Positions 45,694 to 48,043 of a stretch of DNA of 64,000 nucleotides are shown piece after piece (the first letter of the stretch is position 1; the number at the start of each line of letters is the position of its first letter). The stretch is from sequence record PQ569716.1; one strand, 5' to 3'. This DNA is from Klebsiella phage vB_Kpn_K7_rec17. Position numbers and translations under genes: made by a program. Below the pieces are notes generated by a model. The model worked only from the letters and a program-made list of their open reading frames with translations. It was not told the DNA's origin and searched no databases.

Positions 45694-45778
45694 ACCACAC
45701 TATGGGACTTTAGCTAATCGGTTAAGCGACATAGACAGCGGTGAATTCCGGTCTATGTAGGGAGTAACACGTAGTCTC
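45694..45778 (+). ncRNA. non-canonical tRNA-like RNA (85 nt): 7-bp acceptor helix + D-arm + 8-bp hairpin with 14-nt loop + 5-bp hairpin with 11-nt loop + A-CCA
   Basis: acceptor GGGACTT/AAGTTCC, D-arm GCT...AGC, ACATAGAC...GTCTATGT, GGGAG...CTCCC; no 7-nt anticodon or T loops. Confidence 0.35.
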
Positions 45779-45781
45779 CCA

Positions 45782-45872
45782 AGTTCCACCAAACATCAGA
45801 GCAGCGTGATGTACTGCAAAGACCCAAAGACCGGGGTGGACTTCTTGATTCAAAGGAGCAGGCACGAATTAC
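45782..45872 (+). other. structured spacer (CATCAgagcagcgTGATG hairpin etc.)
   Basis: inspection. Confidence 0.2.
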
Positions 45873-45947
45873 GCAACTGTAGCTCAGCGAGGTGAGAGCA
45901 CTGGTTTGAAAGTCCAGGGGTCGTTCGTTCAAATCGAACCGGTTGCA
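45873..45947 (+). tRNA. tRNA-Phe (anticodon GAA)
   Basis: acceptor GCAACTG/CGGTTGC, D-arm TAGCTCAGCGAGGTGAGAGC, anticodon stem CTGGT/TCCAG loop TTGAAAG, T-arm GTTCGTTCAAATCGAAC, CCA. Confidence 0.65.
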
Positions 45948-45957
45948 CCAAATTAAT

Positions 45958-46089
45958 AGTATCAATAGCTTATGGAGCTGAATAGTCCTAAAGCTCACGG
46001 TAAAGCAGCTGGCCGTTAATGAGCAGACTTGGAAACGTCTGGTGATCTCTAGGTTAGCCGGTGCGTTGGTTCGAATCCAACTGATACTT
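45958..46089 (+). ncRNA. 132-nt tRNA-like element: perfect 7-bp terminal helix AGTATCA/TGATACT, canonical T-arm and CCA, body contains anticodon-like arm CAGAC-TTGGAAA-GTCTG (GGA) plus about 60 extra nt
   Basis: hand-folded; too long for a standard tRNA; could be tRNA-Ser(GGA) with insertion or a tRNA-like ncRNA. Confidence 0.3.
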
Positions 46090-46092
46090 CCA

Positions 46093-46320
46093 AATCCCAA
46101 GTAGCCCGTTACAGGCTCTCTGATTAAACTCAGACAAGCAGGTGATGGGTGACAGGATAAAATAAGCCACCGATTTCCGGCCGTTTGACGTGGTAAAGTC
46201 CTCCAGTCAAGAAGAATTTCTGCGTGCAGAAATCACTGAAGAGCAATGGGGCAGACAACTTGAGATAGATTGCCTATAACGTCTCAAGTAGTGGCGTTGA
46301 CTTAGGGTGGCATTTTCCCG
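46093..46320 (+). other. ORF-free hairpin-rich spacer (ATTTCTGCgtGCAGAAAT; CTTGAGAT...GTCTCAAG)
   Basis: inspection. Confidence 0.25.
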
Positions 46321-46338
46321 AAAGTTCGAAAAATTCAT

Positions 46339-46367
46339 TTGCTAAACGCTCTTATTTATAATATAAT
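46339..46367 (+). promoter_or_regulatory. T5-type promoter (TTGCTA-17-TATAAT)
   Basis: aaaaattcat UP element; near-identical -35 region to promoter at 43461. Confidence 0.6.
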
Positions 46368-46395
46368 AATATAAATTAATGAGAGGGCTTACCTA

Positions 46396-46590
46396 ATGAA
46401 TCAAAAAATTCTTATGCGATATAATCCACGAGCTTTATGGTTCCGCTGGGAAGTGATTGTATCGTACCAGGTACGAGTGCGTAACGGTGATCCTGAGAAC
46501 AACATTATCGTGCTGGAGACATTCTCTAATAGAGATGCGGCAGTTAAGTTCCTGAACACCATCGACAATACTTTAATCAAGGTATATTAA
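46396..46590 (+). CDS. hypothetical protein
   Basis: 64 aa, GAGAGGG site. Confidence 0.5.
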   Translation: MNQKILMRYNPRALWFRWEVIVSYQVRVRNGDPENNIIVLETFSNRDAAVKFLNTIDNTLIKVY

Positions 46591-46592
46591 TA

Positions 46593-46931
46593 ATGGATAT
46601 CTTTACTACTCCTGCTATCAACCTGGTCGGTGTCGGCTTATTCCAGGCAACGGTCTATCGTATCGATGACAGCACTGACGTTGTAACGTTCATTGTACCA
46701 GAGTTCTTTCTTGAGAAGTTCTTTGAAGAGTTTGAGCAATTCCGTGAAGAGCATAATGCTTACTCCAATATGGAAGATCTAGCAGCGATGTTCCCAACTG
46801 TATACGGCTACATCTTTGAAGGCAATGATCTGCTTTTGGATAAGTCAGAGCTGGTAGAACTCAACTGGGGCATTAGCTTTGAAGTTGGCTCTCCGTTCCC
46901 GCGGTATTTCCAAGGTCTGGAGATTCGATAA
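46593..46931 (+). CDS. hypothetical acidic protein
   Basis: 112 aa ORF. Confidence 0.55.
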   Translation: MDIFTTPAINLVGVGLFQATVYRIDDSTDVVTFIVPEFFLEKFFEEFEQFREEHNAYSNMEDLAAMFPTVYGYIFEGNDLLLDKSELVELNWGISFEVGSPFPRYFQGLEIR

Positions 46932-47080
46932 TGGGCGGCTACTCTAATTTCATCGAGAATTACATTAATTCCGTAGATTCCTGGAATCAGGAAACTCTAG
47001 TGGTAGTGCTTAAAGAGAGATTCAATATCTCTACTCTAGAAGCCCTAGAGGCTATAGAAGCCTACTTGGATAATGATTAA
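46931..47080 (+). CDS. small hypothetical protein (49 aa)
   Basis: TAATG overlap with upstream gene. Confidence 0.35.
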   Translation: MGGYSNFIENYINSVDSWNQETLVVVLKERFNISTLEALEAIEAYLDND

Positions 47081-47081
47081 T

Positions 47082-47156
47082 ACCCACTTGGTCCAATCTG
47101 GTAGAGGCATGAGGCTTAAGACTTCAGGGTTCCCGGTTCGAGTCCGGGAGTGGGTA
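47082..47156 (+). tRNA. tRNA with TAA anticodon (Leu-UUA reading) but short 5-nt variable loop
   Basis: acceptor ACCCACT/AGTGGGT perfect, anticodon stem TGAGG/CTTCA loop CTTAAGA, T-arm CCCGGTTCGAGTCCGGG, discriminator A, CCA. Confidence 0.45.
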
Positions 47157-47162
47157 CCAAAT

Positions 47163-47282
47163 TACGGGGCACGACTGATGGGGAAGCCGGCCTGGCTTGG
47201 GTTGAGATACGGTTCGATTCCGTAAATAAATGGTCTCGTAATTCCGCACAGGTGATGGTAGGTTCGAGTCCTACTCCCGTAT
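47163..47282 (+). ncRNA. 120-nt tRNA-like element: 7-bp terminal helix TACGGGG/TCCCGTA, terminal T-arm GTAGGTTCGAGTCCTAC and CCA, plus an internal second T-arm-like hairpin TACGGTTCGATTCCGTA
   Basis: hand-folded; no standard anticodon arm identified. Confidence 0.3.
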
Positions 47283-47303
47283 CCAAATTATAGGGCTAAA
47301 AGT

Positions 47304-47813
47304 ATGAAACATGGTAAAGGCGAATCCAGTAAGCTAAAAGAGCTTATTGATGCGGGGTTTATAACTCCGGATATTACTGAGGAAAACGTACTATTCATAG
47401 TAGAGAATATCACGAATAAAGAGTACTTCCGTAATACCTCCCATGTGAAAGGTTCTAGTTCATATCGTAGAAATACAAAACATTTTTGCCAAATTGTGGC
47501 TAGAGACCTACTAAAGTTTTACCACAAGGAAAATCAGGCTAAGGGACTGAATGCCGGGTATGTTTACTTGATATCTAACCCTGCCTGGGGCAGTTTTAAA
47601 GTAGGTTCCGCTATTGACGTAATAGATAGATTAAATTCTTACCAGACGTACTCTCCTGCACGAGATTACACCCTGGAGTTTTACTTCTTTAGCTTCGATC
47701 GTAGACGAGATGAAAAATTGGTGCTGGATAGCTTTGAACGCTCCAATGAGTGGATTTCCGCCCCTAAAGAACTAATCATCCGTAAGATGAAAGAACTTGC
47801 AGTTTACAGATAA
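47304..47813 (+). CDS. T5orf172-domain (GIY-YIG-like) protein, copy 2
   Basis: 169 aa; GYVYLISNPAWGSFKVGSAIDVIDRLNSYQTYSP; paralogue of 44918-45394. Confidence 0.6.
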   Translation: MKHGKGESSKLKELIDAGFITPDITEENVLFIVENITNKEYFRNTSHVKGSSSYRRNTKHFCQIVARDLLKFYHKENQAKGLNAGYVYLISNPAWGSFKVGSAIDVIDRLNSYQTYSPARDYTLEFYFFSFDRRRDEKLVLDSFERSNEWISAPKELIIRKMKELAVYR

Positions 47814-47888
47814 CTCTCCGTAGCGCAGTCTGGTCAGCGTGGGTGCCTTGGATGCATCGGGTCGTAGGTTCAAATCCTACCGGGGAGA
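47814..47888 (+). tRNA. tRNA-Pro (anticodon TGG)
   Basis: acceptor CTCTCCG/CGGGGAG, D-arm TAGCGCAGTCTGGTCAGCGT, anticodon stem GGTGC/GCATC loop CTTGGAT, T-arm GTAGGTTCAAATCCTAC, CCA. Confidence 0.65.
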
Positions 47889-47895
47889 CCAATTC

Positions 47896-47966
47896 GCCTC
47901 TTTAGTTAAGTGGTATAACAGCTGCCTTGTAAGCAGCCTTCGGTGGTTCGATCCCATCAAGGGGCA
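47896..47966 (+). tRNA. tRNA-Thr (anticodon TGT)
   Basis: acceptor GCCTCTT/AAGGGGC, anticodon stem GCTGC/GCAGC loop CTTGTAA, T-loop TTCGATC, CCA. Confidence 0.65.
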
Positions 47967-47973
47967 CCAATTT

Positions 47974-48043
47974 GCTGGTTATGGTTACAGTGTGATTAAG
48001 TTTACATTGTCGTTAAATTCCGGTTCAATTCCGGGAGCCAGCA
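47974..48043 (+). ncRNA. 70-nt non-canonical tRNA-like RNA (acceptor GCTGGTT/AGCCAGC + T-arm + CCA, but D/anticodon region replaced by one 6-bp hairpin with 12-nt loop)
   Basis: hand-folded; no 5-bp/7-nt anticodon arm possible. Confidence 0.3.

What the first reader, a model, noticed from the sequence alone, without database searches (positions are those of the whole stretch)
45694..48043. Four non-canonical tRNA-like RNAs embedded among genuine tRNAs
Beyond 26 canonical cloverleaves, four elements have a matching 7-bp acceptor helix, discriminator and encoded CCA. Three of them also carry a canonical T-arm, yet all have aberrant bodies.
- 45694-45778: enlarged anticodon and T loops.
- 45958-46089: 132 nt, with a GGA anticodon-like arm plus about 60 extra nt.
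- 47163-47282: 120 nt, with a second internal T-arm-like hairpin.
- 47974-48043: 70 nt, lacking D and anticodon arms.
They are followed by the same CCAAATTT context as the real tRNAs, so they are probably processed by the same RNases. They may be tRNAs with insertions, decoys or tRNA-derived regulatory RNAs.
Basis: seen in the sequence. Interest (0 to 1): 0.65.

Follow-up and report, generated by a model that had tools for sequence, protein, structure and literature searches.

The report
Non-decoding tRNA-like RNAs in T5-like phage
Four RNA genes in the tRNA cluster of a T5-like Klebsiella phage keep the upper half of a tRNA but cannot read codons; at least three are conserved, selected RNAs of a little-studied phage class whose function is unknown, and one carries the signature for charging with alanine.

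Summary
The window is a Klebsiella T5-like phage (Sugarlandvirus, 100% identical to OY978897). All four elements are real.

- **Not ordinary tRNAs:** ARAGORN calls none of them, and none reaches an Rfam threshold.
- **Placement:** each lies 3-7 nt after the CCA of a genuine tRNA, on the same strand, with U at -1.
- **E3** is the ortholog of "RNA2", annotated as a "tRNA-like RNA with unknown functions" in GenBank AJ604531 (Salmonella phage 5). Nineteen distinct sequences from several T5-like lineages show compensatory changes in five helices, including a second complete T arm.
- **E1** is unannotated in every record examined. It occurs in five lineages. G1-C72, G2-C71, G3·U70, A73 and CCA never change while pairs 4-6 covary. 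This is the alanyl-tRNA synthetase identity set.
- **E2** (Klebsiella and Proteus phages) also covaries. Its GGA loop has 8 nt, not 7.
- **E4** is confined to Sugarlandviruses at 95% identity or more, so it cannot be tested.

Best reading: these are stable, non-decoding tRNA mimics derived from tRNA genes and matured by the tRNA-processing machinery. They are new members of a known kind. Their function is still unknown.

The parts
45704..45791 (+). E1: an 88-nt tRNA-like RNA. Acceptor GGGACTT/AAGTTCC with G3·U70, then A73 and CCA. D arm 45713-45727. Long central hairpin 45730-45757. T-like stem 45760-45764 with 45776-45780, closing an invariant 11-nt loop UAACACGUAGU (45765-45775).
   Evidence: Sequence and fold. 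Homologs: 100 phage records, My1 and phage 5, and a metagenome contig. Covariation on A3: 97.7% of cells paired, 9 pairs changed on both sides, and G1-C72, G2-C71 and G3·U70 present in 11 of 11 sequences. ARAGORN and Rfam do not call it.
45958..46092 (+). E2: a 135-nt tRNA-like RNA. Acceptor AGTATCA/TGATACT, U73, CCA. D-like stem GCUU/AAGC encloses a hairpin with the loop UGAAUAGUCCUAA. A long stem GCUGGCC/GGUUAGC encloses the hairpin CAGAC-UUGGAAAC-GUCUG (46024-46041, 8-nt loop containing GGA). Canonical T arm at 46067-46083.
   Evidence: Sequence and fold. Homologs: 67 records, from Klebsiella phages, Eos and Proteus PM135. Covariation on A4: 97% of cells paired, 11 pairs changed on both sides, 0 of 500 shuffles as high. 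Rfam gives only a sub-threshold tRNA match (22 bits, gathering score 29) with a different 5' boundary.
47163..47285 (+). E3: a 123-nt tRNA-like RNA, ortholog of 'RNA2' of the T5 group. Acceptor TACGGGG/TCCCGTA, U73, CCA. 5-bp D-like stem with a GGGG loop. 5-bp 'anticodon' stem enclosing about 60 nt, which include a second complete T arm (47208-47224). Canonical T arm at 47258-47274.
   Evidence: BLAST to rna2 of AJ604531: 78% over 47176-47272. Core homologs in the great majority of 265 matching phage records. A1 holds 19 distinct sequences: 94.9% of cells paired, 16 pairs changed on both sides, 0 of 500 shuffles as high. Four of the five inner T-stem pairs are compensated.
47974..48046 (+). 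E4: a 73-nt tRNA-like RNA. Acceptor GCTGGTT/AGCCAGC, A73, CCA. 9-bp central hairpin 47987-48010 with a 6-nt loop. Canonical T arm 48019-48035. No D arm and no anticodon loop.
   Evidence: Fold z-score -3.9, with 0 of 200 shuffles folding as well. Found only in 55 Klebsiella phage records, all at 95% identity or more. The few substitutions are uninformative. Absent from phage Sealy.
43096..43226 (+). A related fifth element outside the finding: a homolog of 'RNA1' (tRNA-like RNA) of the T5 group. T arm GAAGG-TTCAATC-CCTTC. The acceptor is imperfect (ATGCCG/CGGGGT with one G·G). No CCA is encoded.
   Evidence: 81% identity to rna1 of AJ604531. The acceptor covaries across T5-like phages. Fold.
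45622..45697 (+). tRNA-Lys(TTT). Its CCA ends 6 nt before E1.
45873..45950 (+). tRNA-Phe(GAA). Its CCA ends 7 nt before E2.
47082..47159 (+). tRNA-Leu(TAA). Its CCA ends 3 nt before E3.
47896..47969 (+). tRNA-Thr(TGT). Its CCA ends 4 nt before E4. E4 is followed 5 nt later by tRNA-Gly(TCC) at 48052-48127.
44419..44447 (+). Sigma-70-type promoter-like site (10 of 12 matches). It is the likely start of the transcription unit that carries tRNA-Asp through E1, tRNA-Phe and E2.
   Evidence: This is a consensus match only.
46339..46367 (+). Sigma-70-type promoter-like site (10 of 12 matches). It is the likely start of the unit carrying three small ORFs, tRNA-Leu, E3, the homing-endonuclease-type ORF, tRNA-Pro, tRNA-Thr, E4 and tRNA-Gly.
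   Evidence: This is a consensus match only.
47304..47813 (+). A 169-aa ORF with a T5orf172/MUG113 domain (homing-endonuclease type), directly downstream of E3. It is absent from phiKp_27, which keeps E3.

Best explanation
E1-E4 are genes for small, stable, non-decoding tRNA mimics. They belong to the class that the Ksenzenko laboratory's GenBank records for T5-group phages call 'tRNA-like RNAs with unknown functions'.

**Origin and architecture.**
- Each is a tRNA-derived RNA that keeps the acceptor stem and T arm. This 'top half' is what RNase P, the 3' exonucleases, RNase BN, the CCA-adding enzyme and some synthetases read.
- Its anticodon or D domain has been replaced by another structured module.

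**Expression and maturation (inferred).**
- The elements are co-transcribed with the phage tRNAs from early sigma-70 promoters.
- They are excised like tRNAs, with RNase P cutting after U(-1) and 3' trimming back to CCA.
- They therefore accumulate as stable RNAs.

**Function (inferred).**
- None can decode, because none has a 5-bp stem closing a 7-nt anticodon loop.
- E1 keeps the complete acceptor identity set of tRNA-Ala (G1-C72, G2-C71, G3·U70, A73, CCA). It is predicted to be charged with alanine by host AlaRS.
- The selected parts other than the top half are invariant loops. These are the 11-nt loop of E1, the UGAAUAGUCCUAA and UUGGAAAC loops of E2, and the second T loop and CUCGUAAnUCCGCA segment of E3.
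- I therefore infer that the RNAs act in trans as tRNA-shaped ligands or scaffolds for host or phage factors, not as adaptors.

**Status of each step.**
- Shown: the structures, their conservation and covariation, the tRNA-like genomic placement, and the Ala identity signature.
- Inferred: transcription, processing, alanylation and trans action.
- Not known: the molecular target.
For: **Structure is real and selected.**
- E3: 19 distinct sequences from several T5-like lineages. 94.9% of cells are paired, 16 pairs changed on both sides, and 0 of 500 shuffles reach the observed value. Versions with the 3' partner slid give 31-43% paired.
- E3: four different acceptor helices all pair (ATTCTAG/CTAGAAT, GTTCTAG/CTAGAAC, TACGGGG/TCCCGTA, AGACAAT/ATTGTCT). 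The inner T arm switches between GCTCG/CGAGT and TACGG/CCGTA.
- E1: 97.7% paired, 9 pairs with double changes.
- E2: 97% paired, 11 pairs with double changes.

**Alanine identity of E1.**
- G3·U70, G1-C72, G2-C71, A73 and CCA are present in 11 of 11 distinct sequences and in one more metagenomic homolog.
- Pairs 4-69, 5-68 and 6-67 vary (GGGACTT, GGGGTCT, GGGGTTT, GGGGTAT).
- In the window, only tRNA-Ala and E1 among 30 elements have G3·U70.
- A G3·U70 acceptor helix is sufficient for AlaRS recognition, even in minihelices (Hou and Schimmel 1988; Francklyn and Schimmel 1989; cited from my own knowledge).

**tRNA-like placement.** The elements lie 3-7 nt after the preceding CCA. U(-1) is present in 4 of 4, against 19 of 26 tRNAs. 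They are on the same strand as the tRNAs, and no + strand terminator-like site separates them from the tRNAs.

**Not ordinary tRNAs.** ARAGORN and Rfam do not call them.

**Prior recognition of the class.** AJ604531 annotates rna1, rna2 and rna3 as 'tRNA-like RNA with unknown functions' and rnaI, rnaIII and rnaIV as 'stable RNA'. E3 matches rna2 and window 43103-43219 matches rna1.

**Invariant loops beyond what processing needs.** See the conserved columns.
Against: - No expression, end-mapping or charging data exist for this phage, and none was found in the paper library.
- E4 has no informative variation. It is patchily present and is absent in Sealy.
- E2, E3 and E4 are each missing from some close relatives. 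E3 is absent in P5010. T5 lacks E1. None of them can therefore be essential.
- The PARIS paper cites T5 mutants carrying deletions in the tRNA gene region (Glukhov et al. 2018, cited in PMC11464382).
- The encoded CCA is not conserved in all homologs. E3 ends in GACA/GACT in Tequintavirus and ACTA in phiKp_27. E2 has TCA in Sealy. E4 has AACC in P5010.
- The acceptor sequence and discriminator of E3 differ between lineages, which argues against specific aminoacylation of E3.
- The PM135 copy of E2 has lost acceptor pairing.
- The MFE of E3 is no better than that of shuffles.
- No target was identified for any conserved loop.
Confidence: 0.6

Rival explanations
1. The elements act only in cis, as processing punctuation. 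The acceptor/T minihelix is kept solely to recruit RNase P and 3' exonucleases. That cuts the long tRNA-ORF early transcripts into defined tRNAs and mRNAs, for example freeing the homing-endonuclease mRNA downstream of E3. The excised RNA itself has no function.
For: The elements sit at junctions between tRNAs and ORFs, or between two tRNAs, with tRNA-like spacing and U(-1). E3 lies directly upstream of an ORF both here and in phage 5. The top half is the most consistently conserved part. The cassette-like gain and loss fits dispensable punctuation.
Against: Punctuation needs only a minihelix. It does not explain several selected features:
- the invariant 11-nt loop of E1 and the conserved G3·U70/A73 alongside a covarying remainder of the stem;
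- the covarying D-like stem, 'anticodon' stem and second T arm of E3;
- the covarying extra helices and invariant loops of E2.

E1, E2 and E4 also directly follow a genuine tRNA, and E4 is directly followed by one. That tRNA would already provide a cleavage site.
Confidence: 0.2
2. The elements are decaying tRNA pseudogenes or recombination scars. They were produced by homing-endonuclease-driven shuffling of the tRNA cluster and are not under selection.
For: Homing-endonuclease-type ORFs flank the region. The PM135 copy of E2 is a chimera whose 3' end duplicates a fragment next to an HNH gene. The elements change position or are absent among close relatives. E4 is restricted to one genus at 95% identity or more. 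Several copies have lost the encoded CCA.
Against: Compensatory substitutions maintain every helix of E1, E2 and E3 across lineages that differ by 10-30% in sequence. E1 and E3 persist in multiple T5-like lineages. Loops are invariant while stems vary. A decaying gene would lose acceptor pairing, not replace it four times with new complementary sequences.
Confidence: 0.12
3. The elements are functional adaptor tRNAs of unusual architecture. For example, E2 could be a remodelled tRNA-Ser(GGA), or a quadruplet (+1 frameshift) decoder because of its 8-nt loop.
For: The loop of E2, UUGGAAAC, contains U33-like U, GGA and a 3' purine. The hairpin and the preceding segment of E2 resemble those of tRNA-Ser(GGA) from T5, My1 and PM135. 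The window has no canonical tRNA-Ser(GGA), whereas T5, My1 and PM135 do. The loop sequence is conserved between Klebsiella and Proteus phages.
Against: - The E2 loop has 8 nt in all 7 sequences. E2 also has A1-U72 and U73 in place of the G1-C72 and G73 of the phage Ser tRNAs.
- About 45 extra nt sit in the D region of E2, and the variable region is paired into a long stem.
- PM135 has both a normal tRNA-Ser(GGA) and the E2 homolog.
- E1, E3 and E4 have no 7-nt anticodon loop at all. The central arm of E1 changes length and sequence between genera.
- None reaches the Rfam tRNA threshold.
Confidence: 0.05

Closest known systems
'tRNA-like RNAs with unknown functions' RNA1, RNA2 and RNA3, and the 'stable RNAs' I, III, IV and 2H, annotated in the tRNA gene region of T5-group phages (GenBank AJ604531, Salmonella phage 5)
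   Same: Same phage family and the same location, interspersed with tRNA genes on the same strand. They share the acceptor-plus-T-arm architecture with an aberrant body. E3 is the sequence ortholog of RNA2 (78% over the core) and shares its whole covarying fold. Window 43103-43219 matches RNA1. RNA3 (73 nt: acceptor, central hairpin, T-like arm, ACCA) has the same size and layout as E4.
   Different: The phage 5 homolog of E1 (AJ604531 5688-5762, minus strand) is not annotated there or in any other record examined. E2 and E4 have no counterpart in Tequintavirus. E4 and RNA3 show no detectable sequence similarity. Most Tequintavirus RNA2 genes do not encode CCA, whereas this one does.
Phage T4 RNAC and RNAD (species 1 and 2 RNAs) from the T4 tRNA region
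   Same: They are small RNAs transcribed from a phage tRNA cluster, and their biological roles are unknown (PMC3014915). They too sit beside homing-endonuclease genes in a tRNA region.
   Different: I did not compare the T4 sequences here, so no homology has been tested. T4 and T5 are unrelated phage families, so this is an analogy and not a membership claim.
tRNA-like domain of tmRNA (SsrA)
   Same: E1 resembles it in being a non-decoding RNA with an acceptor helix carrying G3·U70, A73 and CCA. In tmRNA these direct charging with alanine.
   Different: E1 has no mRNA-like tag reading frame and no pseudoknots. ARAGORN finds no tmRNA in the window. The T loop of E1 is an 11-nt non-T-loop sequence, whereas tmRNA has a canonical T loop. 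E1 has a regular D arm. E1 is 75-88 nt long, against about 360 nt for tmRNA.
Engineered 'tRNA scaffold' RNAs (Ponchon and Dardel 2007; listed in the references of PMC3401473)
   Same: A foreign structured RNA is inserted in place of the anticodon loop of a tRNA, so that the chimera is processed and stabilised by the host tRNA machinery. That is exactly the layout of E3, where a 5-bp anticodon stem encloses a 60-nt module. E2 has the same logic.
   Different: The scaffold is an artificial design. The elements here are natural, conserved genes. That they owe their stability to the scaffold is inferred, not shown.
Canonical tRNA (Rfam RF00005)
   Same: 7-bp acceptor, discriminator and CCA. T arm with a UUCRAnn loop in E2, E3 and E4. 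D arm with GG in E1 and E3. Placement in tandem arrays with tRNAs.
   Different: None has a 5-bp anticodon stem with a 7-nt loop. Lengths are 73-135 nt. All score below the Rfam gathering threshold, and ARAGORN does not call them.

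Membership tests
Canonical tRNA (RF00005 / ARAGORN model) | 7-bp acceptor stem, discriminator, 3' CCA | tested here: met
   All four have 7 standard pairs followed by N and CCA.
Canonical tRNA (RF00005 / ARAGORN model) | 5-bp anticodon stem closing a 7-nt loop with U33 and an anticodon | tested here: not met
   E1 has a 7-bp stem with an inner stem and 6-nt loop. E2 has an 8-nt loop in all 7 homologs. E3 has about 60 nt in place of the loop. 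E4 has a 9-bp stem and a 6-nt loop.
Canonical tRNA (RF00005 / ARAGORN model) | T arm: 5-bp stem with a 7-nt UUCRAnn loop | tested here: met
   Met for E2, E3 and E4. Not met for E1, whose loop is the 11-nt UAACACGUAGU.
Canonical tRNA (RF00005 / ARAGORN model) | Score above the curated detection threshold | tested here: not met
   ARAGORN calls none of them. The only Rfam match is E2 at 22 bits against a gathering score of 29, E = 0.97, with a shifted 5' end.
T5-group RNA2 (tRNA-like RNA, AJ604531 rna2) - for E3 | Sequence homology to annotated rna2 | tested here: met
   78% identity over 99 nt, E = 1e-15. It aligns end to end with the other 18 sequences of alignment A1.
T5-group RNA2 (tRNA-like RNA, AJ604531 rna2) - for E3 | Shared secondary structure: acceptor, D-like stem, long-range 'anticodon' stem, inner T arm, outer T arm | tested here: met
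   94.9% of cells paired, with compensatory changes in every helix.
T5-group RNA2 (tRNA-like RNA, AJ604531 rna2) - for E3 | Accumulates as a discrete RNA in infected cells | not testable with these tools
   The record gives the annotation only. I found no expression data.
T5-group RNA3 (73-nt tRNA-like RNA) - for E4 | Sequence homology to annotated rna3 | tested here: not met
   BLAST of rna3 against the window's tRNA region finds no match. Only size and layout are alike.
Alanine-accepting RNAs (tRNA-Ala, tmRNA) - for E1 | G3·U70 wobble pair in the acceptor helix, with A73 and G2-C71 | tested here: met
   Invariant in 11 of 11 distinct homologs plus one metagenomic homolog, while pairs 4-6 covary. 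Within the window, only tRNA-Ala shares it.
Alanine-accepting RNAs (tRNA-Ala, tmRNA) - for E1 | Actual aminoacylation with alanine by AlaRS | not testable with these tools
   This needs in vitro charging or acid-gel Northern analysis.
tmRNA - for E1 | Internal tag-peptide reading frame, pseudoknots, canonical T loop | tested here: not met
   ARAGORN finds no tmRNA. Rfam gives no tmRNA match at E1; the only weak hit to the permuted-tmRNA model lies elsewhere, at 39688-39825, with 17.9 bits. E1 is 88 nt long and has no room for a tag frame.
T4 RNAC/RNAD | Sequence or structural homology | not tested
   I did not fetch the T4 sequences. The comparison rests on location and unknown function only.

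The most novel reading that the evidence does not exclude
The T5-like phages carry a toolkit of tRNA mimics that act in the conflict with the host.

- E1 would be an alanine-charged, non-decoding aminoacyl-tRNA mimic.
- E2-E4, RNA1 and RNA2 would be uncharged 'top-half' mimics.
- They would titrate or mis-direct host factors that recognise the tRNA body. Candidates are tRNA-directed defence nucleases and toxins, or EF-Tu, RNase P and the CCA-adding enzyme.
- They would thereby complement the nuclease-resistant phage tRNAs already shown to neutralise PARIS and retron Eco7.
- The second T loop of E3 could dock on a tRNA elbow, as T loops do in RNase P, T-box RNAs and the L1 stalk.
Probability: 0.2. 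Interest if true: 0.8.

Novelty: new member of a known kind. Interest (0 to 1): 0.5.

Why it matters
Phage tRNA clusters are now known to be anti-defence tools. T5 tRNA-Lys neutralises PARIS and T5 tRNA-Tyr protects against retron Eco7 (PMC11464382).

The tRNA-like stable RNAs that sit among those tRNAs have been without a function for decades, in T4 (RNAC and RNAD) as in T5. Here, at least three of the four elements are shown to be under selection for structure.

One of them, E1, gives a concrete handle, because its conserved alanine identity set predicts charging by AlaRS. That prediction can be tested in a day with a transcript and a G3·U70 mutant. A positive result would define a new type of aminoacylated non-decoding RNA beside tmRNA.

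There is also a practical point. These genes are unannotated, or covered by spurious 'hypothetical protein' or 'tRNA-Arg' calls, in the phage genome records examined here.

Tried and rejected
- **Rfam, all 4227 families, E up to 10, over 38-50 kb.** No family matches any of the four. The only hit is the sub-threshold tRNA match on E2.
- **Antisense targets of the conserved loops within the window.** There is one 13-mer with one mismatch to the E1 loop complement at 61091. About 0.08 are expected by chance, it lies far outside the tRNA cluster, and I did not follow it up.
- **A D-loop/T-like-loop kissing pair GUUA/UAAC in E1.** It is not conserved in My1 (GGGUAA), so I dropped it.
- **A CGAG/CTCG helix inside the E3 insert.** It breaks in 7 and 3 of 19 sequences at two of its pairs with no compensation (helix 4), so I rejected it.
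- **The ARAGORN 'tRNA-Arg(CCG)' reading of the 5' part of the KKP_3711 RNA2 homolog.** I rejected it because the long-range helices covary and that anticodon stem is not conserved.
- **The AAS21 'tRNA-OTHER' as a further mimic.** ARAGORN reads it as tRNA-Cys, so I dropped it.
- **Scan of IMG/VR with the 14-mer CTGAATAGTCCTAA.** The hits were almost all chance matches. Only Klebsiella-type and PM135-type loci carry E2.
- **Scan of species-representative bacterial genomes with the E3 motif.** It returned six unrelated chance hits, so there is no bacterial homolog.
- **Metagenome scan with the E1 loop motif.** The hits were mostly noise, but one new E1 homolog turned up.
- **Covariance model of E1.** It finds E1 only in the window, My1 and phage 5 among 20 loci. 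Other hits are ordinary tRNAs at 14-29 bits.
- **Pfam on 15 ORFs of the tRNA region.** It found only T5orf172/MUG113 domains and DUF7337. No RNA-modifying or synthetase-like partner appeared.
- **Literature searches.** I found no paper in the library that describes these RNAs.

Full report
**Source and setting.** The region 45600-48200 is 100% identical to Klebsiella phage vB_Kpn_K30lambda2.2 (OY978897, Demerecviridae, Sugarlandvirus) and to a series of its recombinants. The window carries the T5-type early tRNA region at 38.8-48.7 kb, all on the + strand. ARAGORN finds 25 tRNAs. A 26th, tRNA-Gly(TCC) at 48052-48127, is annotated in the GenBank record but missed by ARAGORN. No record examined annotates any RNA at the four elements. 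Some records place a 'hypothetical protein' over E1 or E2.

**Check of the observation.**
- All four elements are there.
- E1 is misplaced by about 10 nt. It runs from 45704 to 45791, with acceptor GGGACTT/AAGTTCC, discriminator A and CCA.
- Each has seven standard acceptor pairs, a discriminator and an encoded CCA. E2, E3 and E4 have a textbook T arm, meaning a 5-bp stem and a UUCRAnn loop.
- E1 has a normal-looking D arm, a long central hairpin and a 5-bp T-like stem closing an 11-nt loop.
- The 'GGA' loop of E2 has 8 nt (UUGGAAAC), not 7.
- E3 contains a second complete T arm, TACGG-UUCGAUU-CCGUA, at 47208-47224.
- E4 has a 9-bp hairpin where the D and anticodon arms would be.
- Chance is excluded. 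The scan for a 7-bp acceptor plus NCCA directly preceded by a T arm returns only the tRNAs and E2-E4, all in the cluster and on one strand.
- ARAGORN calls none of the four. Rfam gives only a 22-bit sub-threshold tRNA match on E2 with a different 5' end.

**Genomic placement.**
- The elements begin 6, 7, 3 and 4 nt after the CCA of tRNA-Lys, tRNA-Phe, tRNA-Leu and tRNA-Thr. tRNA-Gly begins 5 nt after E4. Neighbouring tRNAs in this cluster are 2-10 nt apart.
- All four have U at position -1, as do 19 of the 26 tRNAs. From my own knowledge, U(-1) is the nucleotide preferred by bacterial RNase P.
- Strong sigma-70-type promoter-like sites lie on the + strand at 43461, 44419 and 46339. No + strand terminator-like site separates the elements from the tRNAs.
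- The elements are thus laid out as members of polycistronic tRNA-ORF transcripts.

**E3 is a known RNA family.**
- GenBank AJ604531 (Salmonella phage 5 tRNA gene region, from the Ksenzenko laboratory) annotates rna1 (145 nt), rna2 (125 nt) and rna3 (73 nt) as 'tRNA-like RNA with unknown functions'. It annotates rnaI, rnaIII, rnaIV, rna2H and rnaX as 'stable RNA with unknown functions'.
- E3 matches rna2 at 78% over 47176-47272. Window 43103-43219 matches rna1 at 81%.
- The E3 query matches 265 phage records, most of them over the core and a minority only over the 3' T arm.
- I collected 19 distinct sequences. They come from Sugarlandvirus, Tequintavirus (T5, BF23-type, phage 5), Epseptimavirus, Enterobacter phage KKP_3711, Pantoea phage AAS21, and Pectobacterium phages My1 and DU_PP_V.
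- On this alignment 94.9% of cells are paired. Sixteen of 30 pairs have changes on both sides, and no shuffle in 500 reaches the observed values. Slid controls give 31-43% paired.
- All seven acceptor pairs covary. There are four unrelated acceptor sequences, all complementary, plus a within-Klebsiella C3-G70 to U3-A70 switch in phiKp_27.
- Four of five D-like pairs, three of five pairs of the long-range 'anticodon' stem and two T-stem pairs also covary.
- MAFFT mis-registers the inner T arm by one column. Extracted directly, it is GCTCG/CGAGT in 13 sequences and TACGG/CCGTA in 6, so four of five pairs are compensated.
- The discriminator (G, U or A) and the 3' tail (CCA, or ACA/ACT/ACC, or CUA) are not conserved. 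Specific aminoacylation of E3 is therefore unlikely.

**E1 carries the alanine identity set.**
- Homologs occur in Klebsiella, Salmonella and Escherichia (Epseptimavirus and some Tequintavirus) and Pectobacterium (My1) phages, and in one metagenomic contig. The phage 5 homolog (AJ604531 5688-5762, minus strand) is not annotated. T5 itself lacks E1.
- The Tequintavirus form is only 75 nt, because its central hairpin is short. To keep the helices in register I padded three short sequences with N, which the counting tool sets aside.
- On that alignment 97.7% of cells pair and nine pairs show double changes.
- G1-C72, G2-C71 and G3·U70 are invariant in 11 of 11 sequences, together with A73 and CCA. 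Pairs 4-69, 5-68 and 6-67 vary freely (GGGACUU, GGGGUCU, GGGGUUU). The metagenomic homolog adds GGGGUAU/AUACUCC, again with G3·U70.
- Within the window only tRNA-Ala and E1 have G3·U70.
- From established knowledge, G3·U70 with A73 is the major determinant for AlaRS and works in minihelices and in tmRNA (Hou and Schimmel 1988; McClain and Foss 1988; Francklyn and Schimmel 1989). I infer from this that E1 is alanylated.
- The central arm changes in length and sequence between lineages, so it is not an anticodon arm. The 11-nt loop UAACACGUAGU is invariant except for one A-to-G change in phage Sugarland.

**E2.**
- It is found in 67 records, from Klebsiella phages, 'Eos' and two Proteus phages.
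- Seven distinct sequences give 97% of cells paired and 11 pairs with double changes, with 0 of 500 shuffles as high.
- Acceptor compensations are U5-A68 to C-G in Eos and A7-U66 to G-C in Sealy.
- The D-like stem changes from GCUU/AAGC to GCUC/GAGU. The hairpin inside the D loop changes from GAGCU/AGCUC to GAACU/AGUUC to GCUAC/GUAGC. The GGA hairpin changes from CAGAC/GUCUG to CAGGC/GCUUG.
- The loops UGAAUAGUCCUAA and UUGGAAAC are nearly invariant, with single-base differences in Eos, Sealy and Kpn2-P1.
- The hairpin and the preceding segment resemble the anticodon and D regions of tRNA-Ser(GGA) from T5, My1 and PM135. This suggests descent from such a gene. The window itself has no canonical tRNA-Ser(GGA).
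- E2 differs from those tRNAs in having A1-U72, U73 and the 8-nt loop. PM135 has both a normal tRNA-Ser(GGA) and the E2 homolog.
- The PM135 copy has lost acceptor pairing through a duplication next to an HNH gene.

**E4.**
- It is found only in 55 Klebsiella phage records, all at 95% identity or more.
- The few substitutions do not test pairing. One turns U·G into U-A in the T stem.
- It folds much better than shuffles (z = -3.9). It has the same size and layout as RNA3 of phage 5 but no sequence similarity to it.
- Its status as a selected RNA remains open.

**Mobility.**
- The elements behave as cassettes. E3 is absent in P5010, where tRNA-Leu abuts tRNA-Pro. E3 is present without the endonuclease ORF in phiKp_27.
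- E2 sits at the tRNA-Leu/tRNA-Pro junction in Sealy. E4 is replaced by unrelated sequence in Sealy.
- Two ORFs with T5orf172/MUG113 domains (homing-endonuclease type) lie in the region.
- The PARIS paper cites T5 mutants carrying deletions in the tRNA gene region (Glukhov et al. 2018, cited in PMC11464382). None of these RNAs can be essential in the laboratory.

**Mechanism.**
- What every element retains is the acceptor/T minihelix. From established knowledge, this is the part of a tRNA read by RNase P, the 3' exonucleases, RNase BN and the CCA-adding enzyme.
- What every element lacks is a decoding anticodon loop.
- The most economical reading is that these are tRNA-derived genes. They use the tRNA maturation pathway to produce stable small RNAs in which another structured module replaces the decoding domain. 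This is a natural counterpart of the engineered 'tRNA scaffold'.
- The modules and loops are conserved beyond what processing requires, and E1 conserves a synthetase identity set. I therefore favour trans-acting tRNA mimics (confidence about 0.6) over pure processing punctuation (0.2), pseudogenes (0.12, mainly for E4) and unusual decoding tRNAs (0.05).
- The partner or target is unknown. No target emerged from the window, and no RNA-handling protein emerged from neighbouring ORFs.

**Comparison and novelty.**
- The kind is known: the T5-group RNA1-3 annotation, and T4 RNAC and RNAD, whose 'biological roles are unknown' (PMC3014915).
- E3 is an already annotated family. E1, E2 and E4 are unannotated members.
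- As far as my searches could establish, three points are new. The first is covariation support for the folds of E1, E2 and E3/RNA2. The second is the conserved alanine identity of E1. The third is the double T-arm architecture of RNA2.
- I found no paper in the library that describes them. The older Russian-language and subscription literature is not searchable here, so priority cannot be excluded.

**Limits.**
- All functional statements are inferences from sequence.
- Covariation counts rest on 7-19 related sequences. The shuffle control does not correct for phylogeny, although the slid-partner controls do.
- One alignment used N-padding to align hairpins of different length.

Noticed in passing
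window 43096-43226 (+), within the ORF-free stretch 42851-43520: A homolog of 'RNA1', the tRNA-like RNA of phage 5 (81% identity). It has T arm GAAGG-TTCAATC-CCTTC and an acceptor that covaries across T5-like phages (GGAATA/TGTTCC, GAAGTA/TGCTTC, ATGCCG/CGGGGT). No CCA is encoded. It is a fifth tRNA-like element that the finding does not list.
   Followed up: partly
window 45792-45872 (+): The 81-nt spacer between E1 and tRNA-Phe is 95-100% identical in Klebsiella phages and in Enterobacter phage KKP_3711, where it precedes the RNA2 homolog. It is 97.6% identical in Salmonella phage bux. That is more conserved than the flanking tRNAs. It contains small hairpins and an AAGGAG motif, and its function is unknown.
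   Followed up: partly
window 46093-46338 (+): An ORF-free 245 nt lies between E2 and the promoter-like site at 46339. The first 148 nt fold far better than shuffles (z = -2.9, 1 of 200). This may be a further structured RNA.
   Followed up: no
window 45463-45542 (+): The 80-nt spacer between tRNA-Asn and tRNA-Cys folds into a 7-bp closing stem with internal hairpins, including a 5-bp/7-nt one next to the closing stem. It looks like a cloverleaf but has no CCA. The evidence is weak (z = -1.2).
   Followed up: no
window 48052-48127 (+): tRNA-Gly(TCC) is missed by ARAGORN. In Rfam it scores only 27 bits against the tRNA-Sec model. The Riker_ER52 record marks it as a pseudogene. It is a borderline tRNA.
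   Followed up: no
L003 (Enterobacter phage KKP_3711) 1549-1618: Both the record and ARAGORN call a 'tRNA-Arg(CCG)' here. It is really the 5' part of the RNA2 homolog, with the inner T arm read as the T arm. This is an annotation artefact that probably recurs in other genomes.
   Followed up: yes
L004 (Proteus phage PM135) 9960-10140: The E2 homolog has a 3' T arm and acceptor strand nearly identical to a fragment at the end of the HNH endonuclease gene just upstream. Its 5' strand no longer pairs. This looks like an endonuclease-associated rearrangement.
   Followed up: partly
window 61091-61103 (+): The 13-mer GACTACGTGTTTC is complementary to the invariant E1 loop, with one mismatch. About 0.08 such matches are expected by chance in the window.
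   Followed up: no
L002 (T5, AY587007) tRNA features: The tRNA feature coordinates in AY587007 are offset by about 68 nt from where the tRNAs actually lie in the sequence.
   Followed up: partly
window 44858-45394 and 47304-47813 (+): Two ORFs with T5orf172/MUG113 domains (homing-endonuclease type) are embedded between tRNA genes. The second lies directly downstream of E3 and is absent from phiKp_27, which keeps E3.
   Followed up: partly
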